DNA of 18,768 nucleotides from a virus (taxonomy: Duplodnaviria > Heunggongvirae > Uroviricota > Caudoviricetes), in the IMG/VR virus record IMGVR_UViG_2718217897_000009, positions 1-18,768 of that record; one strand, 5' to 3'. Positions 4,408-18,768 of this stretch are shown piece by piece; the stretch's first letter is position 1; every line of letters starts with the position of its first letter. The position numbers and the translations under genes are program-made. The notes under the pieces are model-generated. The model made no database searches and was not told the origin of the DNA. It saw only the letters and a list, made by a program, of their open reading frames with translations.

Positions 4408-4411
4408 ACCA

Positions 4412-4726: not shown

Positions 4727-4773
4727 TCTGATAATTGTATGTGAACTAATAAAATACATACCAACACATCATT

Positions 4774-4798
4774 CTGGCACCCTTGCTAACAGGGTGCC
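4774..4798. terminator. Hairpin (8-bp stem TGGCACCC/GGGTGCCA, 9-nt loop) between convergent parR and the cargo gene
   Basis: Inverted repeat read directly; no strong T-tract on either strand, so terminator function is tentative. Confidence 0.3.
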
Positions 4799-4809
4799 AA
4801 TGTTTCAAA

Positions 4810-5652
4810 TCATGATGAAATTGCCGAAGTTTTTTTATCGTGCTGAAGTACCGCAAATGCCATTAAAACCTCAAGAGAATAGCGACGATAATACTTAACA
4901 AAACCATAATAAAATACTCGGGATGCAGCAATACAAAACAAGAGAAGAAAACAAAAAGGTAACAGCCTGATATTTATATCTATTAAAAAGGATAGAAGGA
5001 ACAGGAACATAAGCAACCAGACTGAAGCGAGAAAAACAAATGTAATGTTTCTACAAAAACCATACAAAGCAACATAGTTTTGCATTTTCACCTGATGATT
5101 TTTAGAATGTTCATACACATAATGATAAGCAAGGCGAAAAAGATCGCCCCTCAAGCCCTTACGTCGATATAGCGTAGATACAGAAAAAACATTTATATAA
5201 CCATCTCGTATTTGCGGCCAAAAGACTTTAATAAGTATAGAATGCAGTGTGGTTTTATGATGTTCTGCTTTATCAAAAGCTGATACAGGAAGTAAAAAAA
5301 CTCCACGGATAAAATTAACTATACTGAACTTAGTATTATGTCGTTTTATTTTCAGGGAGCTTCTTTTAGAAAACAGATAAATTGAAGGATACCCAAGTTT
5401 ACTGTTCATATATTTTTCAATTAAACAGGATGATAGAATAGATATGAAGTGACCTGAAATATATGATAGAACGATTAATACCACATATATAAATACAGTT
5501 ATTATTTCTTTATATTTCAGGATATGGTTAAGAATACCTTCTATATAAACAGGGTTAATTTCAATAGAAAACAAAAAAAGGATAAACAGGAATAACCCAC
5601 CTGGAATTAGATAGCCCAAAAAGTCATAAAATGAAAACGGATTCTGTGTCAC
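4810..5652 (-). CDS. Hypothetical multi-pass membrane protein (280 aa, GTG start), low-GC cargo
   Basis: Long ORF in a markedly AT-rich segment; hydrophobic stretches at about residues 13-30, 50-75, 205-230 and 238-256; no recognised catalytic motif. Confidence 0.6.
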   Translation of the reverse strand: MTQNPFSFYDFLGYLIPGGLFLFILFLFSIEINPVYIEGILNHILKYKEIITVFIYVVLIVLSYISGHFISILSSCLIEKYMNSKLGYPSIYLFSKRSSLKIKRHNTKFSIVNFIRGVFLLPVSAFDKAEHHKTTLHSILIKVFWPQIRDGYINVFSVSTLYRRKGLRGDLFRLAYHYVYEHSKNHQVKMQNYVALYGFCRNITFVFLASVWLLMFLFLLSFLIDINIRLLPFCFLLLFCIAASRVFYYGFVKYYRRYSLEVLMAFAVLQHDKKTSAISS

Positions 5653-5691
5653 ACTTCCCCCTGTGTTACTTGTAAATTAAAGGGTAAAACA

Positions 5692-6189
5692 TTATTTGTT
5701 TTTCCGTAAAGGATTAGCTTTCCATCTTCTTACTAACCATTCGAATTCTTGATATGTAGTATCCGAATTAATGCTTTCTCTGATTGCTTTAATTAATGGC
5801 TCGGCAATATCATATGTCTCTACAACTGTTGTGTAAGATGTTCTTTTTATCATTTTTTCATCATAAATACCTTCACGAATACTTACAGCAACTCGCTCGT
5901 AAAAATTTAAAATATATTGAAATTTTCGACGCTCGGCCATTTCTTCATCTGTTATTGTGCAACCATCACAAGGAAAAACATAAGAACGAAATGATTTGCC
6001 TGAACGATGCACTTGTTTCAGGGTATGCAATGACTCTATATATTGCATATCTTGCCGACTCTCAAAAAGAAAGTTGGCCGTTTGAGTTTTTTTTGCGGTA
6101 CGCACATTGTAGATAATGGTTCCAATGGCAACCAAAACGCCAAGCAGAACAATAGCATTGCTGATGATTTGTAGTGTTATTGGGTTCAT
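5692..6189 (-). CDS. Hypothetical protein with a single N-terminal TM helix (165 aa), low-GC cargo
   Basis: ORF with hydrophobic N-terminus (IISNAIVLLGVLVAIGTIIY) followed by a charged soluble domain; same strand as and 39 bp upstream of the 280-aa gene. Confidence 0.6.
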   Translation of the reverse strand: MNPITLQIISNAIVLLGVLVAIGTIIYNVRTAKKTQTANFLFESRQDMQYIESLHTLKQVHRSGKSFRSYVFPCDGCTITDEEMAERRKFQYILNFYERVAVSIREGIYDEKMIKRTSYTTVVETYDIAEPLIKAIRESINSDTTYQEFEWLVRRWKANPLRKNK

Positions 6190-6214
6190 CCTATTTCATC
6201 CATAAAAAAGGCGG

Positions 6215-6225
6215 GGAGCAAATCC
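6215..6225. repeat. IS186 target-site duplication, left copy (GGAGCAAATCC)
   Basis: Identical 11-bp sequence directly flanks both ends of the element. Confidence 0.75.
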
Positions 6226-7564
6226 CATAAGCGCTAACTTAAGGGTTGAACCATCTGAAGAATGCGACGCCTCGGTGCCTCGTTAAGACGATGCCTCGCG
6301 TTCTTCAATTGCGTTTTGTAGGCTGTCAGGGATACTGTCCCACGAATGGCCACCTGTAAGCTCCAGATGACCATTTTTGTTATTCTCCACAACGAGTTAG
6401 TTCTTCTTTTCGGATCCGGCACTTCTGGGGGGGAAATCCAGCGATGGCTGGATTATGTCGTCAATTAAAAATGCGGCGAGTAGATTAGCAAATATCCACG
6501 CTTTCGCGAGTTCAGGTTCCTTTGCACGCAAAGCATCCAGGTGCAGCAAACTTTTGAGCCGCTTAAAAGCCAGTTCAATTTGCCATCGCAGACGGTAACA
6601 ATCAGCCACTTGCTCTGCTGAATATTCATCTTCCGGTAATGATGTTAGCAATAGCACATGGCCCGCTGCTTCCAGCGTTTCCGCCTGAACTACTCGTCCT
6701 TTTCGACGATTCTCGCTGAGCAGTCGGGTTTTACTGATTAATGCTTTTTCGGGAGGAAGTGATACGGCAATGAGACGTGCCGGAAAGGGAGCTCCGGCTT
6801 TTTTATTACCTGAATTGCCTATCATTACAGTGGTTTCACCGTTCTTACCGCAATCCAGCCCGCGCAGAAAACCCATCATGTCAAAGCGCATTCCTTCTGC
6901 AGTTAACCAGCGCAATCCTCGCCAGTGAACCCGGACGATATAATCAGCTTCTCCAAAAGCAAGTGAGCGGATACATTCGGGACGCGAACCGAATCCCCGG
7001 TCAGCAATGCGTATCTCGTCTGCCGTTTGCGCAAATCGGTCCAGCCGTTCAGCGTCTCTGCTGTCGGTTAGCTCAAAATCAGTGAACTGACAGGTATGAG
7101 GATCATATCCCATATGTAGTCGCCATTCAGCGCTGCCGCCCCCGGGCGCACTGATTGCTGTTCCATCGACAAGACGCAATCTCTTTCCGCTTGTACAACC
7201 CGTAACTGCGGCGCGTACAGCAAGTGTTTGTGCGGCAAGTATGCCAAACCAGTCGGCGGCATTCCGCAGCCGCTTCAGGAGAGCCACGTCAGATAATGTT
7301 GCAACGTCATGGAGCTGAGCCCATGCAGTGACTTCACGTAATGACATCCCCCCGGGGCCGTAAGCCAGCCCCAGACGTAGCAGAGTTGCAGCATCACGAA
7401 TTTCGCGGCGGCGGGTTAGAGCCCCGGCATTACGTGCCGAAGTATCCAGTTCTTCGGGCTTACCAATATGGGCCAGAATTGCTGACCAGTTATCGTGAGA
7501 GTAATTCATCGGCACGTTAAATCATATCAGGCGTAATACCACAACCCTTAAGTTAGCGCTTATG
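6226..7564 (-). mobile_element. IS186 (IS4 family), 1339 bp, perfect 23-bp terminal inverted repeats CATAAGCGCTAACTTAAGGGTTG
   Basis: Terminal inverted repeats at 6226-6248 and 7542-7564 read directly; the internal ORF matches the IS186 transposase; flanked by an 11-bp direct repeat. Confidence 0.9.
6397..7509 (-). CDS. IS186 transposase (DDE, IS4 family), 370 aa
   Basis: Translation MNYSHDNWSAILAHIGKPEELDTSARNAGALTRRREIRDAATLLRLGLAYGPGG... matches IS186 transposase over its full length as I remember it; the ORF track starts two codons earlier (MPMNY). Confidence 0.9.
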   Translation of the reverse strand: MNYSHDNWSAILAHIGKPEELDTSARNAGALTRRREIRDAATLLRLGLAYGPGGMSLREVTAWAQLHDVATLSDVALLKRLRNAADWFGILAAQTLAVRAAVTGCTSGKRLRLVDGTAISAPGGGSAEWRLHMGYDPHTCQFTDFELTDSRDAERLDRFAQTADEIRIADRGFGSRPECIRSLAFGEADYIVRVHWRGLRWLTAEGMRFDMMGFLRGLDCGKNGETTVMIGNSGNKKAGAPFPARLIAVSLPPEKALISKTRLLSENRRKGRVVQAETLEAAGHVLLLTSLPEDEYSAEQVADCYRLRWQIELAFKRLKSLLHLDALRAKEPELAKAWIFANLLAAFLIDDIIQPSLDFPPRSAGSEKKN

Positions 7565-7575
7565 GGAGCAAATCC
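7565..7575. repeat. IS186 target-site duplication, right copy (GGAGCAAATCC)
   Basis: Identical to 6215-6225. Confidence 0.75.
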
Positions 7576-7736
7576 CCGCCTCATTAGAGGTCAACGTAGC
7601 TTAGAAACCATCAAATTCATCATGCATTTTTTTCATATCAACCCCCTCATAGAAATCATAACCACGTTTTGTGGTTTTTGTGATGCATAAACTACATCAA
7701 AGGCAAGCTACGGTCAAATATATGGGCATGCTTACC

Positions 7737-8135: not shown

Positions 8136-9185
8136 TCAGGATATGGGCGGGGTATCCAGCAGTGCGTAAGGGTTAAAACGGATCACCTCTTCGCCCAGCC
8201 AGTCATTAACGTGCTTCATCGCCTCCATCACCGGCATCAGTTCGTTGATCGCAAACACTCTGGCCGCCTTCTCCACATCACCAAAAGAACCCTGCCCGCT
8301 GGGCATTGCGCCCATCAGTTGTGGTGGTACACGGTGAGCGGCCAGCACATCATCACGGGAGGCCGCCTTGACGTTCATGAACTCATCCCGGGCGGTGATC
8401 TGCTGGAATGGCAGGATTTGCACACCGTCCTTCCCGCCGTTCGGTGCCTGGAGTAGCAGGTTCTTGAATGCCCCACCGCCTCTTGCGCCCTGCAACGCTC
8501 TTTCGAGAGCCTGCATACTTTCGCGATCAACCTGTGCTGCCCCCACGTAAATGATGCAGCCTGCATGTGAACCGTTGTCATAGTAGAGTTTGCGGAAGCG
8601 ATCTGCCGAGTGCGACAGACTGGCAGACAACAGGCCACCGAGATATTCCGGCATTCCGTACATCTCCTGGTTGATGTCGGGGTTCAGCACATGGCAGACG
8701 CGCCCCTGACGGAACTCGTGGTCCTGCTCCCCCGTCTGCACAAACCAGTACACATCCGGCTCAACACCACGACGGACGTATTTTGCCAGCGCGTGCCGTA
8801 GTTCCAGTTTTCCGCCCAGCCTGTTGGTGCGCAGTTCAAGAAACGCATTCCCGAAGACAAACCAGTCCAGCGCAAAGGCGGAGAACGCCTGCCGGGAGAG
8901 CAGCCGGTGCGGAATGAAGCAGCCCAGTATGGCATTCCGCTTGAAGTACAGCGCCGACTGGTGCCACGAGGTCTGCCGGGATGCCCGCGCCAGTCCGTAC
9001 CAGTCAACGGGCGTTTCGTAGTATCTGCCGTTACTCAGGCAGTATGCGTTATCCAGCAGGTCGAGTGCGTGCGCATCGTAAGGGCCGTCGAACGAGAAGG
9101 CGCTTAACGACGGCTGGCGGCGCAGTGCCTCTGCCAGCGCCACGCCGTCATCGCGGCGCGAATATTTTCGTTTTTGTTTTTTCAT
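8136..9185 (-). CDS. Phage portal protein (P2 gpQ-like), 349 aa
   Basis: Size and position match P2 Q (344 aa); start ATG overlaps the stop of the upstream terminase ORF (ATGA), as expected for the P-Q arrangement. The family assignment is a recollection-level call. Confidence 0.7.
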   Translation of the reverse strand: MKKQKRKYSRRDDGVALAEALRRQPSLSAFSFDGPYDAHALDLLDNAYCLSNGRYYETPVDWYGLARASRQTSWHQSALYFKRNAILGCFIPHRLLSRQAFSAFALDWFVFGNAFLELRTNRLGGKLELRHALAKYVRRGVEPDVYWFVQTGEQDHEFRQGRVCHVLNPDINQEMYGMPEYLGGLLSASLSHSADRFRKLYYDNGSHAGCIIYVGAAQVDRESMQALERALQGARGGGAFKNLLLQAPNGGKDGVQILPFQQITARDEFMNVKAASRDDVLAAHRVPPQLMGAMPSGQGSFGDVEKAARVFAINELMPVMEAMKHVNDWLGEEVIRFNPYALLDTPPIS

Positions 9186-9751
9186 CAGAACTCAATCACC
9201 CGCATTCCTGTTGCACCGTCCTCATCGCCCAGCGGCTCGTTAATGACGGCAAGCATGGTTGCCCACGCGAGGTCGCCGTGGTTTACGCCGCGTGTGCGGT
9301 CTGTTTCATACGTTATTGCCCCGCCCGCCGTTTTTGCCTTGCGCACAGCGTTGAATGCCCTGACCAGCTCACGTTCGCCCCGGTCATACTCCCAGCGCCC
9401 CGCACGAATAATCTGCAGCATCTTCAGCACAAGCGCGCGTTTGGATGCCAGCGTGAACGTGTACGGCACGGCGGCAGGCCAGAACCGCCGCACTATCTGG
9501 TACACTGCCTCACCGTTACCGCCGGTCACGTCGATACCAATGTGCTGGACGTTGTATTTGTGCGTGAACTGCTCAATCACACGGGCCTGCTCTTCAAATT
9601 CCAGCCCCTGCACCTGCAACGTCTCCACCGTGCGGAATTTGCCGCCCCTGACGGCAGGCGGTACAACAACAGACAGCGCCCCGCTGACGTAGCAGGAAAC
9701 AGGGGGATTTGCCCCTGTTTTTTTGTTCAGAATGCAGCCTTCACCATTCAT
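9185..9751 (-). pseudogene. 5'-truncated terminase large subunit (C-terminal nuclease domain only; ATPase domain missing)
   Basis: 188-aa ORF with terminase-nuclease-like features (IGIDVTGG ... VNHGDLAWATMLAV near the C-terminus) but no ATPase domain. P2 gpP is about 590 aa. The first ~18 codons overlap a hairpin/T-run and a tail-gene remnant, so the annotated start is probably spurious. Confidence 0.55.
9696..9723 (+). terminator. Rho-independent terminator-like hairpin (AAACAGGGG/CCCCTGTTT stem, T7 run)
   Basis: Inverted repeat followed by TTTTTTT on the plus strand. Confidence 0.45.
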
Positions 9752-9850
9752 CTCTAATCGTATTCAGTAATTCGCCCGCAGAAACAAACTAAAATTCATC
9801 CCCCGCATCACGCCACTGAAAGCAGACGGTAAACTCCAGATTTTCAAACC
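9726..9850 (-). pseudogene. Diverged remnant of the 3' end of a gpU-like tail gene
   Basis: About 70% nucleotide similarity to the 3' end of the intact U gene at 10508-10640, including the shared TTCAGAATGCAGCC and CTGAAAGC blocks; the minus-strand translation (..EFTVCFQWRDAGDEF*FVSAGELLN..) parallels the U C-terminus (..EFSISFQRCDEDMRERFQSASAGELLN..) but contains a stop. Confidence 0.4.
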
Positions 9851-10171
9851 AGCGTCAGAAGTATTTAAATGGCACCAGATGTAATATGCAGGCGATTAAT
9901 ATGGTGTGCTTAAAGATCATAAAAGCGGGCAACATTAAAACTCCGGGCTGTGTAAATTACCGCCACTCATAATCAGAGATGAAAACAGAATTAAACTGGC
10001 GGAGTGGATTGTATACATAAAATAAGTTCAGTTGTTGACTTTCACTTCCGTGAATTGATGAAGGTTATTACAATACATCGGTATGATCTCTCCTCCTTAA
10101 AAGGGAGGACTTTTCAGAACGCAGAAATTATTTATAATCCCGTAGTGTTCTATACATGCAAACATTCTTTT

Positions 10172-10195
10172 CCCGCCCCGTGCGGGCTTTTTTTT
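10172..10195 (+). terminator. Terminator-like hairpin (CCCGC/GCGGG stem, T8 run)
   Basis: Read directly; preceded about 35 bp upstream by a perfect TATAAT (10133-10138). Confidence 0.4.
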
Positions 10196-10285
10196 GCCGC
10201 AAAGATACAGTAACAAACAAAATTGTAATCATGGCAATCAAAACACGAGAAACATTTTCAGCAATTGCAATAACAAATTAAAATA

Positions 10286-10315
10286 TTGCAATTGACAATC
10301 CCCGCTTAATATAAT
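10286..10315 (+). promoter_or_regulatory. Sigma70-like promoter (-35 TTGCAA, 18-bp spacer, -10 TATAAT)
   Basis: Hexamers read directly; a terminator lies about 45 bp downstream, giving a predicted transcript of about 60 nt. Confidence 0.35.
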
Positions 10316-10359
10316 CCCTTCCGGAACATAGAACATTAAATCTTCACACAATGCATGTT

Positions 10360-10383
10360 GCCCTCTTTATGAGGGCTTTTTTT
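10360..10383 (+). terminator. Rho-independent terminator (GCCCTC/GAGGGC stem, T7 run)
   Basis: Perfect 6-bp GC-rich stem, 5-nt loop, TTTTTTT. Confidence 0.5.
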
Positions 10384-10401
10384 ATTTCCAGAATATCACC
10401 A

Positions 10402-10430
10402 TTGCCATCATCGGGCGATTTATATATAGT
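10402..10430 (+). promoter_or_regulatory. Sigma70-like promoter (-35 TTGCCA, 17-bp spacer, -10 TATAGT)
   Basis: Hexamers read directly; a terminator lies about 45 bp downstream. Confidence 0.3.
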
Positions 10431-10476
10431 CAGAATGTATTGACAACATTTTGCTTCTTTTCCATGAAGGCCATAA

Positions 10477-10506
10477 GGGAGTGCTTTTTACACTCCCTCT
10501 TTTTTT
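10477..10506 (+). terminator. Rho-independent terminator (GGGAGTG/CACTCCC stem, T7 run) abutting the U stop codon on the opposite strand
   Basis: Perfect 7-bp stem, 7-nt loop, T-run; oriented to stop plus-strand transcription before it runs antisense into the tail operon. Confidence 0.5.
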
Positions 10507-10508
10507 AT

Positions 10509-10967
10509 TCAGAATGCAGCCACAGGCATTTTGTCTTTAAGCGCGTTCAGCAGTTCGCCCGCAGAAGCAGACTGAAACCGCTCTCTCATATCCTCATCAC
10601 ACCGCTGAAAGCTGATGGAAAACTCAATCTTTTTTGCCTTTCCGTAACGATCCAGCTCGGAGCGGGTGGTCTGTAATCCTGTAATCACGTACATTCCGTA
10701 AATCTGCCCCGTGCCATCAATCAGCGGCCAGGGACATCCGGTGTAGGCCTGGGTGTTCAGCAGTGTCAGTGACACCTCACCACCGGTAATTTCCGGGTAC
10801 AACAGACCGGACAGCGTGATCTGATCGTCACCTGCGCCAATATACTGCCAGGCCGCAGAGCGGTTAATGCGCTCATTTTTCACATGTCGCCATGTTTTGC
10901 TCTGCTGGATCTGCTGATGCGGAAGCGTTTTCAGCTCAAACACAAACATGCCAAAAATCATCATCAT
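10509..10967 (-). CDS. Tail protein gpU-like (152 aa)
   Basis: Triple-Met start (MMMIFGMFVFELK...) preceded by AAGGAGA; size and position (immediately after the tape-measure gene) match P2 U. Confidence 0.8.
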   Translation of the reverse strand: MMMIFGMFVFELKTLPHQQIQQSKTWRHVKNERINRSAAWQYIGAGDDQITLSGLLYPEITGGEVSLTLLNTQAYTGCPWPLIDGTGQIYGMYVITGLQTTRSELDRYGKAKKIEFSISFQRCDEDMRERFQSASAGELLNALKDKMPVAAF

Positions 10968-10980
10968 AATTGCGTCTCCT

Positions 10981-13900
10981 TTAGTCCCTGTCGCGGAAGC
11001 TGTTCATGCCTGTACGCGCCTGTCTGCGCATCTCTTCGCGGACGGCCTCACCAACCAGTTTTGCCAGTTCGCGCGGATTCTGTGTGTTGACGTTGTGCAG
11101 ATGTACATGTATCTCACCGGAAAACGCAGCAGCCTGTGGTTGTGGCGTAGCTTCCCTTCTGGCCGCTTCCGGTCGCAACGGGGGCCGGATAGCCTCCGCG
11201 ACGGGAGCGGAAGCCATCACCGCCCCCGTCATACCTTCAGCCACGTTACGCGGCTGCGGCAGTGCGGAGACCTGGCGGGCCACGTTCACAACGGGAGCGG
11301 GGGCACTCACCGCAGGGGTGGGCAGTACACCTGTCAGTCTCTGCCAGAGCATTGTCAGTGCATCCGTCAGCCCTACGCCCGCCGATACCGCCTGCACCGT
11401 CCGGACAACCTGCGGTGCTTTCCACTCGCCGTGAATGATTTCGGGTCCGGGCAGATTTTTGAAAACAATATCGCCGGGACCGACGCGCCTGCGTGTTTCC
11501 TCAAGAAGCCCGCCTGTATTGCTGGCGGTTTTCTGTATCCCCTGCCGGAACCATGCCTCATCCAGCGGGGATTTGCTGCCGGGTTTGCCGACCGGATTGT
11601 CCGCCGTTCCCCTCACCTCTCCGGGAACAGCAGGGGCAGGTTTATTGTCACCGTTGTTTTCCGCTGCATCTGATGACCACGACCATGTTTTCTGCACCAT
11701 TTTTTTCTGTGCAGGATCCCACTCCCACGCAACCGGCGCTTTTTGTGTGGACTGTTTTGCGGCGCTCTCCTGGAGTTTTTGCGTCTCCTTCTGTGCCTCT
11801 TTGATGCCGTCCGGGATGACACCCAGCCACTTCAGCACGGTACCGAGGCCATCAAGGAGCAGCGTCATCGGCCCCAGCACAATGTTCTGAATGACCCACC
11901 CCAGCGTTTTCCCGAACGACTCCCCTGCACTGGTGCATTTGTCGAGCGTCTCTTTTGAGGCGTTTGCAGGTTCAAGCAGGCGGGTGAACCACTCCCACAC
12001 GGCTTTGATGCCGTCACCAATCAGCCCGAACACCGGAGCCAGCGATGCAAAGGCTTCCCGCAGCGGTTGCAGCGCCTCCCACACTCCGGCAAAAAAGCCG
12101 GAAAAAAACGCGCTGATCGGATCCCAGTATTTCCACACCAGAACCGCGCCGCCCACCAGGGCGGCAACAATCAGCCCGACCGGACTGAACAGCGCCCCCA
12201 GTGCGCCACCCAGAACCGACACCGCCCCCGTGACCAGCCCCCACAGCGCAGGCAGCCCCGTCAGGCGCAGTGCCATCGCAGACACAAGCCGGACAGCACC
12301 ACCAATGCCACCGCCCCCCGTCAGCAGCCCCAGTCCCAGTTGCAGTTTTGCCAGCGGCCCCGCAATCAGCCCGAGCGTCAGTGACAGCGCACCGAACGTG
12401 GAAGACAGCGCCAGAACACTCCCGCCGGTCAGCACCAGGACTCTGACCAGCGCCTGATGCTCTCCGGCCCATTCGCGCATCCGGGTCACCCACGCGCTCA
12501 CCGTCTGAACCAGCCCGCGCAAATCCTCGGTCACAGTACCGAAGATGTCCGTGCGTAGCCCTGAGAACGCACCACTCAGCGCCTGAATATCGCCGGAAAG
12601 ATTACCGCGCAGCGTCTGCCCCATGCGGTCTGCCACGCCGCTGACATCACCCAGGTTGTCACGGACATCGGCCAGCGCCTTTAAGAACTGCGGGATCTGG
12701 TCAACGGAGAGGTCTTCAACGGGTGTGCCGAACAGCGCAATGGCCGTGTTCGCCCGCTCTGCCGGGTCACGGATGGCCAGCAGTGCACGGGCGGTCACCT
12801 GCATCGCCTGACGAGCGGTGCTGCCTCCCTGTGCAATGGCAGCAGACACCCGCTCAGCATTCAGGCCGAGAGTCTCATACGCTGAGACACTGGATTTCGA
12901 CATATCCGAACCCCGGATGCTGAACTCCTTCACGGCATCGCCGGTTTTGTCCAGCGCAAACTTGCCCTGCTTTGCCATCTCAACCAGCAGACTCATTGTC
13001 TCGCTGCCGGTGAAGCCCATGTTGCGGAAGTGGGTGGAATACTCGTGCAGAATTTCCGGCAGTTCATCGCGCATTTCAGCGGACATACGCTGCATCCCTG
13101 CCGTCATCAGGTTAGTAGCCTCGTCACTGCTGGCAGCCAGCCCGTTCTTCATCATGATGGCAGCGGCCTGAATGCTCTGCGGCACATCAACACCAAAGAC
13201 GGTCCGCATATCCAGCGCACGACGGCTGATGCGCTCCAGTTCCCGGTCGCCGGTGTCGCCCAGTGCACCGAGCGTACTGCGTACCGCACTCACAGCCTCC
13301 GCAGCACCGGCAAAATCAGCGAGACCGTCAGCCTGTATGTTACGAATAATGTGGGTGTAACGTGCGCCATCCTGTGCGCCTTCCCCCGAACCGGCTGCGA
13401 TGACCGCACCGTGCTGTTCGGACTCCATCGCCGGAGCCATCATACGCTGCGCCGCATACAGGCCGCCTGTACCCGCCGCCATCGCCACAGCCCCTGTGTT
13501 GCGCAGTTTTTCCGCCTGTGCCTTCGCGGCCTCATAGCGGCTCTGTGCCTGCGTCACGCGAGCCAGAGCCTGCCGTTCACGCTCGAGCTGCTCGTTGTAC
13601 TGCTGTGTACGGCGAACGGCACTTTCAATGGTGCGGCTGCTGCCGGAAAGCAGAATGCCGTGTTTGCGCATTTCCCCTGCCGCCGCCTGAAGTTTTTCGC
13701 GTTCGCGCGTGCGCAGCTCGTTCAGGCGCTCAAGCCGCGCGGAGAGTGCCGCCAGCGTTTCACGCTGCTTTTCGGAGAGGATGTTACCGTTCTGCTCTGC
13801 CTTTCGCAGCCCGGCGAGCCTCTGCTCCGCGCGGGCAATCTGTTCGCGGTATTTACTGAGATTTCCGGCGGCACGTTCGAACACCTTCGACTGCCTGTCG

Positions 13901-14067
13901 AGCGTCTGTATGTTGTCCTGCGTCTTCTGAAGGGATTCAGTGAGAGCGCCCACCTGACGGCGGGCGTTTTCGGTCGGGCGTGTCAGCCGGTCAATTGCGC
14001 CAAAGCTGACACGAATATCAAGGGATTTCACTGTTGCGGACTCCGCTACGTTGCGCCGCCCGCTCAC
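10981..14067 (-). CDS. Tail tape measure protein (gpT-like), 1028 aa, GTG start
   Basis: Very long ORF with an N-terminal coiled-coil-like region, a central Gly/Ala/Leu-rich hydrophobic segment and a position between E/E' and U; typical of tape measure proteins. Confidence 0.9.
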   Translation of the reverse strand: MSGRRNVAESATVKSLDIRVSFGAIDRLTRPTENARRQVGALTESLQKTQDNIQTLDRQSKVFERAAGNLSKYREQIARAEQRLAGLRKAEQNGNILSEKQRETLAALSARLERLNELRTREREKLQAAAGEMRKHGILLSGSSRTIESAVRRTQQYNEQLERERQALARVTQAQSRYEAAKAQAEKLRNTGAVAMAAGTGGLYAAQRMMAPAMESEQHGAVIAAGSGEGAQDGARYTHIIRNIQADGLADFAGAAEAVSAVRSTLGALGDTGDRELERISRRALDMRTVFGVDVPQSIQAAAIMMKNGLAASSDEATNLMTAGMQRMSAEMRDELPEILHEYSTHFRNMGFTGSETMSLLVEMAKQGKFALDKTGDAVKEFSIRGSDMSKSSVSAYETLGLNAERVSAAIAQGGSTARQAMQVTARALLAIRDPAERANTAIALFGTPVEDLSVDQIPQFLKALADVRDNLGDVSGVADRMGQTLRGNLSGDIQALSGAFSGLRTDIFGTVTEDLRGLVQTVSAWVTRMREWAGEHQALVRVLVLTGGSVLALSSTFGALSLTLGLIAGPLAKLQLGLGLLTGGGGIGGAVRLVSAMALRLTGLPALWGLVTGAVSVLGGALGALFSPVGLIVAALVGGAVLVWKYWDPISAFFSGFFAGVWEALQPLREAFASLAPVFGLIGDGIKAVWEWFTRLLEPANASKETLDKCTSAGESFGKTLGWVIQNIVLGPMTLLLDGLGTVLKWLGVIPDGIKEAQKETQKLQESAAKQSTQKAPVAWEWDPAQKKMVQKTWSWSSDAAENNGDNKPAPAVPGEVRGTADNPVGKPGSKSPLDEAWFRQGIQKTASNTGGLLEETRRRVGPGDIVFKNLPGPEIIHGEWKAPQVVRTVQAVSAGVGLTDALTMLWQRLTGVLPTPAVSAPAPVVNVARQVSALPQPRNVAEGMTGAVMASAPVAEAIRPPLRPEAARREATPQPQAAAFSGEIHVHLHNVNTQNPRELAKLVGEAVREEMRRQARTGMNSFRDRD

Positions 14068-14598
14068 GCCAGCTCATCACCTCGACGAGAGGCATTGAGA
14101 ATATCCCGCCGGGCGACCAGTTAAACACGACTGCTATATCGGCGACCAGTTCTTCAACGTTGTCGAACTTCGCCAGCGTGATTACGCTTCCATCACCGCC
14201 ACGGACGGTTTCGCAGACTCCGTGGGAGCCAAAAAATTCGCCACCAGAGTTGCCAGCGCCACGAAATCACCGGTGGACAGTGACTGAATTTCTGCCAGCT
14301 TCAGGCGTGGTGCGGTCACGCGCGAAAGCAGCGTCATCATCGGGTCCGTTTTGAGGTTCAGCACCTCAATCAGAGACAGCCCGCGCAACGAGCCTGCCTG
14401 GCGGATTTCCTCGCCAATCTCCACATAGTCAATAACGCGTTCGCCACGCACCACCGGGCAGGATAACTGCACACCCGTTTTTTCCTCTGCGGCTTCTGCG
14501 TTATCCACGGTGTTTTCCTCTGCCACATCGATGTTTTCAGTGGTGGTGTCACCTGCGACGATTTCGCTGTTCATGATGTCATCTTTCTTTGCTGCCAT
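14018..14598 (-). CDS. gpE+E' fusion produced by programmed -1 frameshift at T TTT TTG (14230-14236); extension ends at TGA 14018-14020, overlapping the tape-measure start
   Basis: The -1 frame after the slippery site is open for about 70 codons (FFGSHGVCETVRGGDGSVITLAKFDNVEELVADIAVVFNWSPGGIFSMPLVEVMSWRERAAQRSGVRNSEIP) and terminates inside the start of T, the geometry known for P2 E/E'. Confidence 0.55.
14182..14598 (-). CDS. Tail assembly chaperone gpE-like (zero-frame product, 138 aa)
   Basis: ORF between the tube and tape-measure genes with a GGAG RBS; contains the conserved slippery heptamer near its 3' end. Confidence 0.75.
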   Translation of the reverse strand: MAAKKDDIMNSEIVAGDTTTENIDVAEENTVDNAEAAEEKTGVQLSCPVVRGERVIDYVEIGEEIRQAGSLRGLSLIEVLNLKTDPMMTLLSRVTAPRLKLAEIQSLSTGDFVALATLVANFLAPTESAKPSVAVMEA

Positions 14599-14613
14599 TT
14601 TTCTTTCTCCTGT

Positions 14614-14632
14614 GGCGGCACAATGTGCCGCC
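14614..14632. other. Perfect 19-bp palindrome GGCGGCACA-A-TGTGCCGCC in the FII-E intergenic region
   Basis: Read directly; no T-tract; possible mRNA stem-loop modulating expression between tube and chaperone genes. Confidence 0.4.
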
Positions 14633-14644
14633 CTGTTAATGCTG

Positions 14645-15160
14645 TCAGTTCAGACCGAGCGCCGAACTCACGCGGTCACCAAAGACGTTCTGGCCGTCTT
14701 TTTTGTAGATGAAGTTCAGCAGGTCGATTTCTGTCACATCGCTGTCATCCACCGACTCCTTGTAGTAGGTGTTTTTGACGGCGAAGGTGTACTGTGTGGT
14801 GTCGCCCTGTTTGGTTTCGCCACGGTCGATTTCCGTGATGCGTCCGCGCATCTCCACCTCAAGGATCTGACTTTCCTCACCATCGGTGAACAGCTCACCC
14901 ACAAAGCGCAGCGCCACTTCGTTAATGTCAGTGGCGTATTCCTGGAGCAACTCTTTTTCAACACCGCCGGTGGTGAATGAGGCATCCAGTGCGCCGTCAT
15001 CCAGTCCGAGGTCAATATACACCGCACCCAGCATCCCGCCACCGCGATAGGCTTCGGTTTTTCGGGTCAGTTTAGGCAGAGTGACGCCTGTCACCGTGCC
15101 GATTTTGTTTTTGCCGTTCACAAACAGCGTGAACTGGCGAACGTAACGTGGTACAGCCAT
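14645..15160 (-). CDS. Tail tube protein gpFII-like (171 aa)
   Basis: Translation MAVPRYVRQFTLFVNGKNKIGTVTGVTLPKLTRKTEAYRGGGM...VDLGLDD resembles P2 FII; GGGAGGTG RBS; start abuts the FI stop. Confidence 0.9.
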   Translation of the reverse strand: MAVPRYVRQFTLFVNGKNKIGTVTGVTLPKLTRKTEAYRGGGMLGAVYIDLGLDDGALDASFTTGGVEKELLQEYATDINEVALRFVGELFTDGEESQILEVEMRGRITEIDRGETKQGDTTQYTFAVKNTYYKESVDDSDVTEIDLLNFIYKKDGQNVFGDRVSSALGLN

Positions 15161-16342
15161 TTACGCACCTCCCAGCGTTGCAAAAGCGGAGTCGAAATAC
15201 TCATCCGTGAAGGTCTGGTACAGCGTCAGGTCTTCCATCGGCGGCACTGATGTGTACTTGTAGCGGATACGCACGCGCCCCTGACGTAAATCCGTCGTGC
15301 CGTTGTCCAGCACGTCATACCAGCACTCCGCACCGATAAGTTTTCCGGCGGTGACCAGGGCATTGAGTTTTGCGCGGATGGCGCTAATCACGTCCTTCAC
15401 GTTCGCCGGGGTCAGCGGTTCGTCAATGGTTTCGAACTGCGCCTCAGCGATGGTATCTGCCAGAATCTGCGCTGTGCGCGTGTACACCTCAAAGATGTAG
15501 TCGCTGGTTTCGGCAGTACGGTTCCCCCAGAAGCGGAAGCCGTTACGGCGAATAATCGTGGTGATTTCCTTGTTGTTCAGGTTGTTCGCATCACTGTCTT
15601 CAGCCTGCAACGACCAGAACACCTGCTGCGACATACCGAGCACATTTTTCAGCGCCACGTTGGACAGTGACTTGTGCCAGCCCTGCTCACTGTCAATCCG
15701 CGCACGCAACCCGCACGCATACGCCGCAGCCGGAAATGTTTCGTTATTTCCGCTCACCGGGTTGTAGGCAATGAAGTCAGGCCACAGCAGCATCAGCTCA
15801 CGCGCGGAGAACTTAGCGCGGTAAGTGATTGCCTCCGCCATCGTGCCACAGCCGTTACATCCGGCGTACACAAAGGCGCGGAGCTTGTCCGCAATGACGC
15901 ACAGGGCAGATGTGACAGCTTCGGTATCAAGGCCGGGAGCCGCCAGAATACGCGGGCGGTAACCAATGCTCTCGTCCTGTTCGGCAACCAGCAGCGCATA
16001 CATACCCGTATAGCTGCCGTCAGCCTGCGAACCACCGATGACAAGCTGGTCCTGTGTCTCACCTTCCTCTCCGGCTTCTGCCACACGCACCACGATAACC
16101 TTCGGGCTGGTCTGGTCGGAAATCGCCTTGAGCGTTTTGTACAGCGTGCCTGTTGTGCCTGCCTTACCCAGCACATTCGCCACGCGGGTGATCAATACGG
16201 GCCTGTTTAACGGGAACGCGTCGCTGTCTGCATCGTCCGCCGTGGCCACGATACCGATGACACTGGAATCAATGTCATTAATCGCGGTCACGAGGTCGGT
16301 GTTTTCTTTGACGCGTGCGCCGTGAAAGCGTGTTTCACTCAT
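15161..16342 (-). CDS. Contractile tail sheath protein gpFI-like (393 aa)
   Basis: Translation MSETRFHGARV...PLNRPVLIT...KLRAFVYA...ELMLLWPDF...QGWHKSLSNV...IRRNGFRFWGNRT...YTRTAQ resembles P2 FI; start chosen at the internal ATG preceded by AGGAGG. Confidence 0.9.
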   Translation of the reverse strand: MSETRFHGARVKENTDLVTAINDIDSSVIGIVATADDADSDAFPLNRPVLITRVANVLGKAGTTGTLYKTLKAISDQTSPKVIVVRVAEAGEEGETQDQLVIGGSQADGSYTGMYALLVAEQDESIGYRPRILAAPGLDTEAVTSALCVIADKLRAFVYAGCNGCGTMAEAITYRAKFSARELMLLWPDFIAYNPVSGNNETFPAAAYACGLRARIDSEQGWHKSLSNVALKNVLGMSQQVFWSLQAEDSDANNLNNKEITTIIRRNGFRFWGNRTAETSDYIFEVYTRTAQILADTIAEAQFETIDEPLTPANVKDVISAIRAKLNALVTAGKLIGAECWYDVLDNGTTDLRQGRVRIRYKYTSVPPMEDLTLYQTFTDEYFDSAFATLGGA

Positions 16343-16505
16343 GAGCACCTCCTGGTGTTTTTTCTGTGGCACTATCCTCCCGAAAAACACCCCGACACTC
16401 ACGCGCCGCCCCTTCTCGCCGCTCTCCTACAACATGCGCGGCTCGCGGTGTATTTCGCGTGTGTGGAATGATTTGCAGGACGAAGACACTGACGGAGAAA
16501 GCGGG

Positions 16506-17639
16506 ATGAACCTTTCAGGCATTAACGGATACCTCGCGGGGCTGGCAGAGTGCGTGAAGATACCGGATTTTTCCGTCACAACTGACAACGCGGAAACCGG
16601 AAAAAAAGAGGAAAACGAGGCGCTGACCCGACGGGTCATCTCGCTGGCAATGACCGACAACCGGGGATTTGAAGCAGACCAGTTAACCCTCACGATTGAC
16701 GACTGCGACGGCAGCGTGCGTCTCCCGAAGCGCGGGCAGAAGCTGGGGCTGGCGCTGGGCTGGAAAGGTGAGGCGCTGACGGACAAGGGAGCCTTCATCG
16801 TTGACGAGGTGACACACGAGGGACCGCCGGACAGACTCACCATTACGGCCAGCAGCGCAGACTTCCGCCAGGAGTTCAACGTGAAGCGTGAAGTGTCCTG
16901 GCATGACGTGACGGTGGGGCAGGTTGTTTCTGCCATCGCGTACCGTTACGGGCTGAAAGCGCAAATCAGCGCCTCACTGGCAGGGGTGGAAATCGACCAC
17001 GCCGACCAGACGGAGGAAAGCGACATCTCGTTCCTCACGCGTATGGCAGACATGCTGGGAGCAATCGCCACCATCAAGAACGGCGCACTGCTTTTCATCG
17101 TGCCCGGACAGGGGGTGAGCGCCAGCGGAAAGCCGCTGCCCTCATTCGCCATCACCCGCAGCAGCGGTGACAGCCATCACTTCCGCATTGCAGACCGGCA
17201 GGCGTACACGGGGGTACGCGCTTACTGGCTGGACCTGGACTTTGGCAAAAAGAAAAAAGTCAGCGTGAAGAAACGTGGTTCCACCCAAAAAGCAAAAAAG
17301 GAGAAAAGCAGCAGCCGCGAGGGGGATTACATGGAGGGCGCAGACGGCAATGTGTACGTCATGCGCCAAACCTTCAAAAACGAGGAGGCCGCACGCCGTG
17401 CGGCGGCGGCAAAGTGGCAGCAGCTACAGCGCGGTGCGGCTGAGTTCTCCATCACACTGGCACGCGGTCGCCCCGACCTGTACCCCGAAATGCGCGGCAC
17501 GGTATCCGGTTTCAAGAGCGACATCGACGCGGAAGACTGGGTGCTGGCGAAGGTGGAGCACAACATCGACGACAGCGGCTTCACCACGCGGCTTGAGCTG
17601 GAATTAAAAATTCCTGAATGGATAGCACAACAGGAATAA
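16506..17639 (+). CDS. Tail protein gpD-like (late control D family), 377 aa
   Basis: Translation contains ...TDNRGFEADQLTLTIDDCDGSV.LP.RG..L.LALGWKG...SWHD...SFLTR...HHF.IADR.AYTGV...EFSI.LA.GR.D.Y.E..V.VSGFK...W...V.H...SGFTT.LELE, typical of the P2 D family; GGAG RBS 8 nt upstream of ATG 16506. Confidence 0.85.
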   Translation: MNLSGINGYLAGLAECVKIPDFSVTTDNAETGKKEENEALTRRVISLAMTDNRGFEADQLTLTIDDCDGSVRLPKRGQKLGLALGWKGEALTDKGAFIVDEVTHEGPPDRLTITASSADFRQEFNVKREVSWHDVTVGQVVSAIAYRYGLKAQISASLAGVEIDHADQTEESDISFLTRMADMLGAIATIKNGALLFIVPGQGVSASGKPLPSFAITRSSGDSHHFRIADRQAYTGVRAYWLDLDFGKKKKVSVKKRGSTQKAKKEKSSSREGDYMEGADGNVYVMRQTFKNEEAARRAAAAKWQQLQRGAAEFSITLARGRPDLYPEMRGTVSGFKSDIDAEDWVLAKVEHNIDDSGFTTRLELELKIPEWIAQQE

Positions 17640-17689
17640 CCGGAATAAAATCACGACGATTCACCTTCACGAAAAAGGAGGTCTTCGTC

Positions 17690-17947
17690 GTGTCTTTTCC
17701 GTGTCCTTTTTGTGGTGCGAGCACACGCACCCGCACCAGTCGCGCAGCGAACGATACCGGAACTGTCCGCTGGAAACTCTGCCAGTGCAACAACCCGGAA
17801 TGCAGTCTCTCCTTCTCGACGCTGGAGAGTTTCGACAAAATCACTGTTAAACGTTATGGCTGCACTTCACAGGATATTCCGTGGCAAAGCCTGCCTGCGT
17901 CTCACCGGGGTGATACGCAGTTGTCACTGCCGTTTCCGGTAATGTGA
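17690..17947 (+). CDS. ogr: Ogr/Delta-family zinc-finger late transcription activator (GTG start), 85 aa
   Basis: MSFPCPFCGASTRTRTSR...CQCNNPEC has the C-x2-C ... C-x-C-x4-C arrangement and RTSR motif comparable to P2 Ogr (MFHCPLCQHAAHARTSRY...CQNVNC); AGGAGG RBS 8 nt upstream of the GTG. Confidence 0.8.
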   Translation: MSFPCPFCGASTRTRTSRAANDTGTVRWKLCQCNNPECSLSFSTLESFDKITVKRYGCTSQDIPWQSLPASHRGDTQLSLPFPVM

Positions 17948-18003
17948 GCACATGCCTGTTTTTGTTTTTGTTTCTGTATTATTTTGATTCTGGAGTTTTA
18001 TTT

Positions 18004-18768
18004 TTGACCGGATTTCAACAACGCATCGTGACCGAAAACACCCGCCTGTACTGTGGCGACGCACTGGCAGTATTACCGCATATTGAGCCGGACAGTGTGG
18101 ACGCACTCATCACCGACCCGCCCTACAGTTCCGGCGCGACACACAAAGCCGGACGCAGCCTTCAGGGCAGCCACGCAAAATATCTGAACAGTGAGAGCCT
18201 TCACCGCTTTGAGGGCTTCGCAGGTGAAAACATGGATGCCCGTTCATGGGCATACTGGATGCAGTTGTGGATGATGCAGGCGTACCGCGCCGTCAGGCCG
18301 GGAGGGTATGCTCTGGTCTTTTCCGACTGGCGACAATTACCCGCCCTGACCGATGCTTTTCAGGCAAGTGGCTTTACATGGCGCGGCATTGTTGTCTGAA
18401 ACAAAGGAAGAGCGGCGCGAACGCCTCATGTGGGGTATTTCCGGCATCAGTGCGAATTTATGGTATGGGGCAGCAAAGGCCATCTGGATAAATCCCCGAA
18501 CGGCCCGTTTGACGGCTGTATGTCGTTTCCGGTCAGGCCGCAAAAGAAACTGCATCCGACCGGAAAACCGGAAGCGCTGATGGCAGAGTTGATCAGGACA
18601 GCAGGCGACGGCGGCACAGTCCTTGACCCGTTCATGGGATCGGGAACCACAGGCGTTGCCGCACTGAAAGCGGGCTGCAAATTCATCGGCATCGAGACAA
18701 GCCCGCACTACTTCAGTGTGACTGTTGAGCGACTGCGGCAGGCGCAGTTGATCCCCGCAGCAGCATAA
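18004..18768 (+). pseudogene. Beta-class DNA methyltransferase (DPPY motif IV before FMGSGTTG motif I) interrupted by an in-frame TGA at 18397-18399
   Basis: Two ORF-track segments lie in the same frame separated by a single TGA. Motifs ITDPPYSS (N-terminal part) and DPFMGSGTTG (C-terminal part) are present. Start is uncertain (TTG 18004 with GGAG upstream, or a later GTG). The gene ends at the last base of the window. Confidence 0.65.

What the first reader, a model, noticed from the sequence alone, without database searches (positions are those of the whole stretch)
14018..14236. Canonical -1 programmed frameshift site (T TTT TTG) giving a gpE+E' fusion that overlaps the tape-measure start
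The slippery heptamer is in the correct zero-frame register (AAT TTT TTG) 15 codons before the E stop, and the -1 frame stays open for about 70 codons, ending inside the beginning of the tape-measure gene. This is the conserved architecture of tail assembly chaperones and supports the tail operon being intact even though the prophage is defective.
Basis: partly seen in the sequence, partly recalled or inferred. Interest (0 to 1): 0.4.

Follow-up and report, generated by a model that had tools for sequence, protein, structure and literature searches.

The report
P2-type tail chaperone frameshift site
This is an ordinary copy of the well-known programmed -1 ribosomal frameshift that P2-like phages use to make two tail-assembly chaperones (E and E+E') from one gene, preserved here in a partly deleted E. 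coli prophage.

Summary
The gpE-like ORF is 14598..14182 (138 aa). It contains T TTT TTG at 14236..14230 in zero-frame register AAT TTT TTG, 15 codons before its stop. The -1 frame then stays open to the stop at 14020..14018, 14 nt inside the tape-measure gene (GTG 14031). The predicted fusion is 193 aa.

- The -1 extension matches Pfam Phage_P2_GpE, the E' family (E = 1.2e-13).
- The fused protein aligns with P2 gpE+E' across the junction (40% identity, E = 2e-32).
- P2's annotated frameshift site is the same heptamer in the same register.
- In all 22 relatives examined, E' lies in the -1 frame. Nineteen have T TTT TTN at the homologous spot and three have another in-register slippery heptamer.

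No stimulatory RNA structure was found, as is reported for P2.

The host element is a defective P2-like prophage between glsA and copA in E. coli. About 14 kb of head, lysis, baseplate and fibre genes are gone. The FI-FII-E/E'-T-U, D and ogr ORFs are intact.

This is already-known biology and of low interest. Frameshifting itself was not, and could not be, measured here.

The parts
14182..14598 (-). Zero-frame tail assembly chaperone gene, gpE homologue (138 aa, stop included)
   Evidence: ORF and translation. phrog_103 'tail protein' 4e-29. tblastn 42.5% identity over 80 aa to P2 E. RefSeq CDS 'phage tail protein' WP_065273861.1. Pfam PF10109 reaches only 15.6 bits, below the cutoff of 25.
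14230..14236 (-). Slippery heptamer T TTT TTG (zero frame AAT TTT TTG)
   Evidence: Read directly from the sequence. Identical heptamer and register to the annotated P2 site GGT TTT TTG. Conserved position in 19 of 22 relatives.
14018..14236 (-). E' reading frame (-1 relative to E): 72 codons from the slip site, stop at 14020..14018. Fused E+E' is 193 aa.
   Evidence: Translation. Pfam PF06528 1.2e-13. phrog_1756 1e-24. dN/dS about 0.29 in this frame against 1.0-1.6 in the control frames, versus P88-like phages.
14039..14146 (-). Conserved E' core (PF06528 match, residues 31-66 of the extension: ..ADIAVVFNWSP..M...E..SWRERA..RSG)
   Evidence: Pfam match coordinates. Alignment of 22 E' sequences with near-invariant AD, F.W.P, M, E, WR, R and G.
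14182..14266 (-). 85-nt window where both the zero and -1 frames are open. It is the only place a productive shift can occur and contains a single in-register slippery heptamer.
   Evidence: -1 frame opens 30 nt upstream of the heptamer; the E stop closes the window.
10981..14031 (-). Tape-measure gene T. Its GTG start at 14031 overlaps the E' end by 14 nt.
   Evidence: Pfam PF10145. RefSeq CDS WP_065273863.1. GGAG 9 nt upstream of the GTG.
14645..15160 (-). Tail tube gene FII, immediately upstream of E
   Evidence: Pfam PF04985 7e-46. RefSeq.
15161..16342 (-). Tail sheath gene FI, first gene of the operon
   Evidence: Pfam PF04984, PF17482 and PF22671. RefSeq start.
10509..10967 (-). gpU-like tail terminator gene, last gene of the operon
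   Evidence: Pfam PF06995 7e-40.
16506..17947 (+). Divergently transcribed gpD-like gene (16506..17639) and ogr/Delta-like late activator (17690..17947)
   Evidence: RefSeq annotation. The same divergent layout occurs in phage P88 and in E. coli strains 135 and 2-1.

Best explanation
The site is the E/E+E' programmed -1 ribosomal frameshift cassette of a P2-like (Peduoviridae) prophage whose closest phage relatives are Xuanwuvirus, Gemsvirus and Novemvirus.

When the FI-FII-E-T-U late operon is translated, most ribosomes finish E (138 aa). A minority slip back one base on U UUU UUG, with the P-site tRNA-Phe re-pairing UUU to UUU and the A-site tRNA-Leu moving from UUG to UUU. They then read GGC UCC CAC... 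to the stop at 14020..14018. The result is a 193-aa E+E' protein that shares residues 1-122 (or 1-123) with E and carries the conserved E' domain. Residue 123 is Leu under tandem slippage, or Phe if the slip precedes A-site decoding.

By analogy with lambda G/GT, the shared E part binds the tape-measure protein and the E' part recruits the tube protein, and the slip frequency fixes their ratio.

Shown here: the anatomy, the homology of both parts, conservation of the site and frame, purifying selection in the E' frame, and the absence of an own start codon. Inferred: that slippage occurs, how efficient it is, and the chaperone roles. In this element the cassette is most likely an undecayed relic, because the baseplate, fibre and head genes are deleted.
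For: - Anatomy.
- The gene lies between the tube and tape-measure genes.
- The extension hits PF06528 at 1.2e-13, above its cutoff, plus phrog_1756 and phrog_6416.
- E+E' against P2 gpE+E': 40% identity, E = 2e-32, with the alignment running straight through the junction.
- P2 record AF063097 annotates gpE+E' and the 'site of -1 translational frameshift' at the same heptamer and register.
- PMC3091744 states that the P2 shift occurs at TTTTTTG and yields the 91-aa E and 142-aa E+E'.
- Across 22 relatives at 26-96% E identity, E' is always in the -1 frame. There are 14 TTTTTTG, 4 TTTTTTT and 1 TTTTTTC at the homologous codons. The other 3 have A AAT TTT, C CCT TTC or G GGA AAG in register.
- E'-frame dN/dS is about 0.29, against 1.0-1.6 in the other frames.
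- There is no ATG, GTG or TTG in the -1 frame between the slip site and the conserved core.
- It is the only one of 178 heptamers with this ORF configuration.
- The lambda G/GT mechanism is described in PMC5009743.
Against: - No frameshift product has been observed for this element.
- Pfam PF10109 (the gpE family) scores below its cutoff on the zero-frame protein (15.6 against 25 bits), and NCBIfam gives nothing.
- No stimulatory RNA structure or Rfam element was found, although none is reported for P2 either.
- TTTTTTG is over-represented in the window as a whole.
- The prophage is defective, and sister strains have lost the module, so present-day use is doubtful.
Confidence: 0.92

Rival explanations
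1. Relic only. The cassette is sequence-intact because the roughly 14-kb deletion is recent. It is no longer expressed to any purpose or under selection in this host. This rival concerns current function, not identity, and it is compatible with the best explanation.
For: - E, the GpE piece, T, U and the tube protein have the same protein accessions as in the near-complete prophage of strain 2-1 at the same copA-proximal site, which points to recent divergence.
- Baseplate, fibre, head and lysis genes are absent, and the replication gene and large terminase are truncated.
- The adjacent methyltransferase is a pseudogene.
- Strains AST19 and EC0026B carry the same remnant with T-E'-E-FII-FI-D deleted.
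Against: ogr, D and the FI-D intergenic region are retained at 99.5% identity to strain 2-1, so the operon could still be transcribed. No expression data are available either way.
Confidence: 0.6
2. Transcriptional slippage. RNA polymerase stutters on the T6 run and adds one U, so a fraction of mRNAs encode E+E' directly and no ribosomal slippage is needed.
For: The site is a homopolymer run (T6 here, T7 in strain 135 and two IMG/VR contigs). The reporter-fusion data for P2, as I recall them, do not by themselves separate the two mechanisms.
Against: - Six residues is shorter than the runs known to give appreciable bacterial RNAP slippage (own knowledge: usually 8-9 or more).
- Three relatives keep the shift with non-homopolymeric heptamers (A AAT TTT, C CCT TTC, G GGA AAG).
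- All relatives preserve the X XXY YYZ codon register. That register matters for tRNA re-pairing but is irrelevant to polymerase stuttering.
Confidence: 0.05
3. Independent small gene. E' is translated from its own start codon as a separate 25-39 aa 'GpE family' protein, as RefSeq annotates it, and no frameshift occurs.
For: PGAP calls a separate CDS at 14095..14018, and annotators of many phages do likewise.
Against: - The only canonical start in the window's -1 frame downstream of the slip site is ATG 14095. It lies inside the PF06528 match (residues 31-66) and would remove half the domain.
- In 97%-identical relatives PGAP instead uses a non-canonical ATA with no Shine-Dalgarno sequence.
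- Start positions are absent or non-conserved across 21 loci.
- The conserved linker upstream of the core (RGGDG) and the dN/dS signal show that the frame is read from further upstream.
- In P2, E' is annotated as a -1 extension of E.
Confidence: 0.03
4. Chance. A T-run happens to sit near the end of an ORF next to an open alternative frame.
For: TTTTTTG occurs 15 times in the window against 5.7 expected. GC-rich DNA has long spurious open frames, for example the antisense ORFs 13030..14124 and 14034..14354, which have no Pfam hits.
Against: Homology of the -1 frame to E', conservation of site, register and frame across genera, and frame-specific purifying selection.
Confidence: 0.01

Closest known systems
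Bacteriophage P2 gpE / gpE+E' (-1 frameshift in the FETUD operon; Christie et al. 2002, cited in PMC3091744; GenBank AF063097)
   Same: Identical heptamer T TTT TTG in the identical zero-frame register. The gene sits between FII (tube) and T (tape measure). E' is homologous (PF06528). E' ends a few bases inside T. No own start codon for E'. No detectable stimulatory structure.
   Different: - Only 40% identity overall.
- E carries about 40 extra acidic N-terminal residues (138 against 91 aa).
- The slip site is 15 rather than 6 codons before the E stop.
- A 10-residue insertion (..CETVRGGDGS..) follows the junction, so E+E' is 193 against 142 aa.
- D and ogr are transcribed divergently from FI rather than downstream of U.
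E/E' cassettes of P88-like phages (Xuanwuvirus P88 and P88_4B11, Gemsvirus 500465-2, Novemvirus phiT5282H)
   Same: Closest phage relatives (E 50-55%, E' 63-65% identity). Same 85-103-nt two-frame overlap, slip site 15-17 codons before the E stop, same (G/D)GDG-type linker, same divergent D|FI layout.
   Different: The window's clade is known only from E. coli prophages and IMG/VR contigs (9 of 5426 complete E. coli genomes). P88_4B11 has TTTTATG at the T-run, leaving A AAT TTT as its slippery heptamer.
Phage lambda gpG / gpGT tail assembly chaperones (-1 shift at G GGA AAG)
   Same: [quoted passage not shown]
   Different: No sequence similarity is expected or was seen. Siphovirus rather than contractile tail. 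Different heptamer, though Mannheimia P2-like phages do use G GGA AAG.
E. coli dnaX gamma/tau -1 frameshift (A AAA AAG)
   Same: Tandem-slippage X XXY YYZ heptamer in an E. coli translation context.
   Different: dnaX depends on an upstream Shine-Dalgarno-like element and a downstream hairpin. Here no significant or conserved downstream structure was found (z = -0.11 over 60 nt and -1.65 over 100 nt; consensus -2.07 kcal/mol), there is no Rfam frameshift element, and the shift extends rather than truncates the protein.

Membership tests
P2 gpE / gpE+E' frameshifted tail assembly chaperone pair | Located between the tail tube (FII) gene and the tape-measure (T) gene of a contractile-tail operon | tested here: met
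   PF04985 tube at 14645..15160 and PF10145 tape measure at 10981..14031 flank it.
P2 gpE / gpE+E' frameshifted tail assembly chaperone pair | Zero-frame product homologous to P2 gpE | tested here: met
   tblastn 42.5% identity over 80 aa to P2 E, E = 2e-13. BLASTP of the fusion 2e-32. phrog_103 4e-29.
P2 gpE / gpE+E' frameshifted tail assembly chaperone pair | Zero-frame product passes the Pfam PF10109 (Phage_TAC_7) gathering score | tested here: not met
   15.6 bits against a cutoff of 25, and only the C-terminal 40 residues match. P2 gpE scores 47.8. This is a sensitivity limit of the model for this divergent clade, since direct pairwise homology to P2 gpE is clear.
P2 gpE / gpE+E' frameshifted tail assembly chaperone pair | -1 frame ORF homologous to E' (Pfam PF06528 Phage_P2_GpE) | tested here: met
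   50.7 bits against a cutoff of 23, E = 1.2e-13, covering profile positions 1-36 of 37. Alignment with 21 E' sequences.
P2 gpE / gpE+E' frameshifted tail assembly chaperone pair | Slippery X XXY YYZ heptamer (T TTT TTG in P2), in zero-frame register, inside the two-frame overlap | tested here: met
   AAT TTT TTG at 14238..14230. It is the single in-register heptamer in the 85-nt overlap. P2 has GGT TTT TTG.
P2 gpE / gpE+E' frameshifted tail assembly chaperone pair | E' lacks its own translation initiation site | tested here: met
   No ATG, GTG or TTG between the slip site and the conserved core. The first ATG (14095) lies inside the domain and has no strong Shine-Dalgarno sequence.
P2 gpE / gpE+E' frameshifted tail assembly chaperone pair | E' terminates at or just inside the start of the tape-measure gene | tested here: met
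   E' stop at 14020..14018 and T start at 14031. P2: E' ends at locus position 810 and T starts at 803.
P2 gpE / gpE+E' frameshifted tail assembly chaperone pair | A fusion protein is actually made by the -1 shift (about 10% in P2, from my memory of Christie et al. 2002) and is essential for tail assembly | not testable with these tools
   Needs a reporter assay, a western blot, mass spectrometry or genetics.
Stimulated -1 PRF signals (dnaX / IS-type, with a 3' hairpin or pseudoknot) | Stable, conserved RNA structure 5-9 nt downstream of the heptamer | tested here: not met
   60-nt fold z = -0.11 and 100-nt fold z = -1.65. Nine-sequence consensus -2.07 kcal/mol. No Rfam match at E <= 1.

The most novel reading that the evidence does not exclude
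The clade-specific features could define a functionally distinct chaperone subclass. These features are the roughly 40-residue acidic N-terminal extension of E, which has an 11-aa indel among relatives, and the 10-residue RGGDG-containing linker after the junction. Alternatively, the retained FI-FII-E/E'-T-U + D + ogr block could be kept and expressed by the host for some use of sheath/tube polymers. Nothing found here supports either idea, but neither is excluded.
Probability: 0.03. Interest if true: 0.35.

Novelty: already known. Interest (0 to 1): 0.08.

Why it matters
Mainly for annotation. RefSeq splits this cassette into a 'phage tail protein' and a 25-aa 'GpE family' fragment with an arbitrary start (ATG here, ATA in 97%-identical relatives), instead of a 138-aa E and a 193-aa E+E' joined at 14230. 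Recognising the site confirms that the tail-core operon of this remnant has not decayed and helps date the deletion as recent. It adds no new biology: the mechanism, the heptamer and its conservation in P2-like phages have been described since 2002-2004.

Tried and rejected
- NCBIfam gave no hit for E or for the fusion.
- Pfam gave no hit for E at E <= 0.01 and only a sub-threshold PF10109 match at relaxed settings.
- The genome-contig scan with E found no confirmed relative, and the viral-contig scan found only 3.
- The word-indexed protein search returned only a narrow E. coli clade. I therefore took diversity from tblastn against phage records and fetched 20 loci individually.
- The primary P2 paper (PMC135442) is not held. 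I relied on the GenBank annotation and on PMC3091744 instead.
- The Rfam whole-window and relaxed local scans were empty.
- The PDB sequence search was empty.
- I looked for a stimulatory hairpin in single sequences and in a 9-sequence alignment and found nothing significant. The GGTGG 4 nt upstream of the heptamer, also present in P2, is explained by conserved Val codons and is too close for the dnaX-type spacing. This is by inspection and was not tested.
- A weak hairpin directly 5' of the T-run was flagged as terminator-like (14258..14242). It has only 3 G-C pairs and is not conserved in P88, so I dismissed it.
- An exact P2-type Ogr dyad TGT-N12-ACA is not present in the FI-D intergenic region, so the late promoter was not identified.
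- The Glu-to-Gly change in the E' core (SPGGIF against SPGEIF) looked like possible decay. That column also holds V, A and D in functional phages, and the allele is shared with the near-complete prophage of strain 2-1, so it is uninformative.
- The antisense ORFs 13030..14124 and 14034..14354 have no family hits.

Full report
**1. Observation**

The genes of this region are on the minus strand. The ORF from ATG 14598 to the stop at 14184..14182 encodes 138 aa. The run TTTTTTG occupies 14236..14230. It begins at index 362 of the ORF, so the zero-frame codons are AAT TTT TTG, which is the X XXY YYZ register needed for tandem tRNA slippage. Fifteen sense codons separate TTG from the TAA stop.

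Reading from 14236 in the -1 frame gives 72 sense codons (FFGSHGVCETVRGGDGSVITLAKFDNVEELVADIAVVFNWSPGGIFSMPLVEVMSWRERAAQRSGVRNSEIP) and a stop at 14020..14018.

**2. More than chance?**

The heptamer alone is not evidence. TTTTTTG occurs 15 times in the window against 5.7 expected. The configuration, however, is unique. Of 178 XXXYYYZ heptamers on both strands, only this one has at least 80 open zero-frame codons upstream, a zero-frame stop within 30 codons, and a -1 frame that continues at least 40 codons past that stop. The zone in which both frames are open is 85 nt long and contains a single in-register heptamer.

**3. Identity of the two reading frames**

- The -1 extension matches Pfam PF06528 (Phage_P2_GpE, which is the E' segment) at 50.7 bits against a cutoff of 23, E = 1.2e-13, covering the whole profile. 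It also matches phrog_1756 (1e-24) and phrog_6416 (4e-14).
- The zero-frame protein matches phrog_103 'tail protein' (4e-29) and P2 gpE directly (42.5% identity over 80 aa).
- It falls below the Pfam PF10109 cutoff (15.6 against 25 bits, while P2 gpE scores 47.8), and NCBIfam finds nothing.
- A conceptual E+E' fusion aligns with P2 gpE+E' at 40% identity, E = 2e-32, in one alignment that runs through the junction. The only gap there is a 10-residue insertion just after the junction.
- The flanking genes are tail sheath, tail tube (upstream), tape measure and gpU (downstream).

**4. Comparison with P2 and the family**

GenBank AF063097 annotates gpE, gpE+E' ('-1 frameshift; essential tail protein') and a 'site of -1 translational frameshift'. 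The sequence there is GGT TTT TTG, the same heptamer in the same register, and E' ends 8 nt inside T. PMC3091744 summarises the primary work: the P2 shift occurs at TTTTTTG, gives the 91-aa E and the 142-aa E+E', is conserved in Burkholderia P2-like phages, and has no downstream hairpin.

I fetched 22 related loci from Peduoviridae of Escherichia, Klebsiella, Enterobacter, Salmonella, Yersinia, Erwinia, Mannheimia, Aeromonas, Burkholderia and Ralstonia, a Zymomonas plasmid-borne prophage, three IMG/VR contigs and E. coli prophages.

- In all 22, E' homology lies in the -1 frame relative to E homology.
- At the homologous codons, 14 have TTTTTTG, 4 have TTTTTTT and 1 has TTTTTTC.
- The remaining three carry a different in-register slippery heptamer: A AAT TTT (P88_4B11), C CCT TTC (Klebsiella ST16-OXA48phi5.4) and G GGA AAG (Mannheimia). 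The Mannheimia record's own note also names its site as slippery.
- E identity to the window across this set ranges from 26% to 96%.

Against P88-like phages, the part of E' downstream of the E stop has dN/dS of 0.29-0.39 in the E' frame, against 1.0-1.6 in the two other frames. An alignment of 22 E' sequences shows the near-invariant AD..F.W.P...M...E...WR....R..G core.

**5. Mechanism**

*Shown.* The register, the open frame, the homology and the conservation are all shown above. E' also has no own start. There is no ATG, GTG or TTG in the -1 frame between the slip site and the conserved core. The first ATG (14095, which PGAP uses for a 25-aa CDS) lies inside the PF06528 match. In 97%-identical relatives PGAP instead chooses a non-canonical ATA with no Shine-Dalgarno sequence. 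Start codons across the family are absent or non-conserved.

*Inferred, from P2 and lambda.* A minority of ribosomes slip -1 on U UUU UUG and produce a 193-aa E+E' alongside the 138-aa E. Residue 123 is Leu if both tRNAs slip after A-site decoding, and Phe if the slip precedes decoding. The shared part binds the tape measure and the E' part engages the tube protein, with the slip frequency setting their ratio (lambda G/GT model, PMC5009743). My recollection of Christie et al. 2002 is about 10% efficiency in P2. That paper is not in the library.

*Stimulators.* No stimulator was found.
- The 100 nt downstream fold with z = -1.65 (11 of 200 shuffles fold as well), and the first 60 nt with z = -0.11.
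- Four relatives, including P2, give z from -0.38 to +1.19.
- A nine-sequence consensus fold has -2.07 kcal/mol.
- Rfam has no match, even at E <= 1.

**6. Rivals**

- *Transcriptional slippage* on the T-run is unlikely. The run is short. Three relatives use non-homopolymeric heptamers. The codon register is conserved, and register matters only for tRNA re-pairing.
- *Independent translation of E'* is contradicted by the start-codon analysis, and by conservation and selection upstream of any candidate start.
- *Chance* is excluded by the homology.
- *Relic only* is the live question and concerns present function rather than identity (see section 7).

**7. Context and the 'intact operon in a defective prophage' claim**

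The window is 100% identical over 9000..18768 to the chromosomes of E. coli AST205 and E100341. The element sits between glsA and copA. Its gene order is:

1. integrase
2. HTH repressor
3. truncated replication endonuclease
4. ParM-like cargo
5. IS421
6. portal
7. large terminase lacking its N-terminus
8. U, T, E', E, FII and FI on the minus strand
9. D, ogr and a methyltransferase pseudogene on the plus strand

The divergent D|FI arrangement is native to this phage group, as seen in P88, strain 135 and strain 2-1.

Strain 2-1 carries a near-complete version at the same site. It has the full terminase, the capsid, lysis and baseplate genes, and an IS3-disrupted fibre gene. Its E, GpE-fragment, T, U and tube protein accessions are identical to those of the window's element. 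Compared with it, the window lacks about 14 kb, from inside the terminase gene to just beyond the fibre genes, with the junction at about 9685/9686.

So the tail-core ORFs are indeed intact and the prophage is indeed defective. But no tail can be assembled without a baseplate, and strains AST19 and EC0026B have gone on to delete T-E'-E-FII-FI-D. The cassette is best seen as undecayed because the deletion is recent. The clade is rare, found in 9 of 5426 complete E. coli genomes.

**8. Novelty and verdict**

This is the P2 E/E+E' frameshift, with the same heptamer, register, position and E' domain, in a divergent member of the family. The differences are quantitative:

- about 40 extra acidic N-terminal residues
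- a slip site 15 rather than 6 codons before the E stop
- a 10-residue RGGDG-type linker shared with P88-like phages

Novelty is 'already known' and interest is low. The only practical value is correcting the split RefSeq annotation.

Noticed in passing
window 9686..10508: An AT-rich block that RefSeq leaves unannotated, between the truncated terminase and gpU. It is flanked by a 26-nt direct repeat (9713-9738 and 10495-10520), and the second copy is the 3' end of U plus its terminator tail. Inside are three + strand sigma-70-like promoters (10111-10138, 10286-10315, 10402-10430; 10 of 12 matches), each followed 35-60 nt later by a hairpin and T-run (10172, 10360, 10476). These may be short transcripts or morons. 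No convincing Rfam match at E <= 1 (best SpF51_sRNA, 22.8 bits against a gathering score of 50, E = 0.14). Positions 9855-9941 are about 80% identical to the P2 H/G fibre junction.
   Followed up: partly
window 6209..7581: The IS421 (IS4-like) copy is inverted relative to the otherwise 99.98-99.99% identical strain AST205. The two alignments overlap by about 40 nt at each end, at the terminal inverted repeats. This is either an in-place inversion or an assembly difference.
   Followed up: no
window 14230 (slip site) compared with L006, L007, L022: Sister prophages (strain 135 and two IMG/VR contigs) have T TTT TTT instead of T TTT TTG. That changes zero-frame Leu123 to Phe and the first -1 codon from Gly to Cys. 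It is a natural polymorphism in the last position of the heptamer.
   Followed up: partly
window 14473..14598 (N-terminus of E): E has a roughly 40-residue acidic, low-complexity N-terminal extension that P2 gpE lacks. Most database relatives are 127 aa (an 11-aa indel) rather than 138 aa.
   Followed up: no
window 14018..14095 (RefSeq 'GpE family phage tail protein'): PGAP's standalone 25-aa CDS starts at an ATG inside the conserved E' domain. In 97%-identical relatives it starts 14 codons earlier at a non-canonical ATA. This is an annotation artefact of not modelling the frameshift.
   Followed up: yes
window 3448..6189: Cargo region of the prophage. It holds a ParM-like segregation protein and a partition/stability protein (3448..4726, +). 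It also holds a 280-aa hypothetical protein with a weak PADLOC Csx27 hit (1.2e-5) next to a DUF4760 protein (4810..6189, -). Strain 2-1 has an AAA ATPase and an S8 peptidase at the corresponding place, so this looks like a variable, possibly defence-related hotspot.
   Followed up: partly
window 9185..9685 and L024: The large terminase retains only its C-terminal RNaseH-like domain, and the deletion junction lies at about 9685/9686. Strains AST19 and EC0026B carry the same remnant with a second deletion that removes T through D, which documents stepwise decay.
   Followed up: partly
window 18004..18768: The DNA methyltransferase next to ogr is a pseudogene with an internal stop in the 100%-identical AST205 record, but it is intact in strains 135 and 2-1.
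   Followed up: no
window 14185..14200 (E' linker, -1 frame RGGDG): The window clade, P88-like phages and some Klebsiella phages share a GGDG/TGDG motif in the linker between the slip site and the E' core. It is absent from P2, and the underlying GGCGG(A/T)GA(C/T)GGA is conserved at the DNA level.
   Followed up: no
whole window: TTTTTTG is about 2.6-fold over-represented (15 against 5.7 expected, with 0 of 200 shuffles reaching 15). Slippery-motif counts alone are therefore a poor screen in this sequence.
   Followed up: yes
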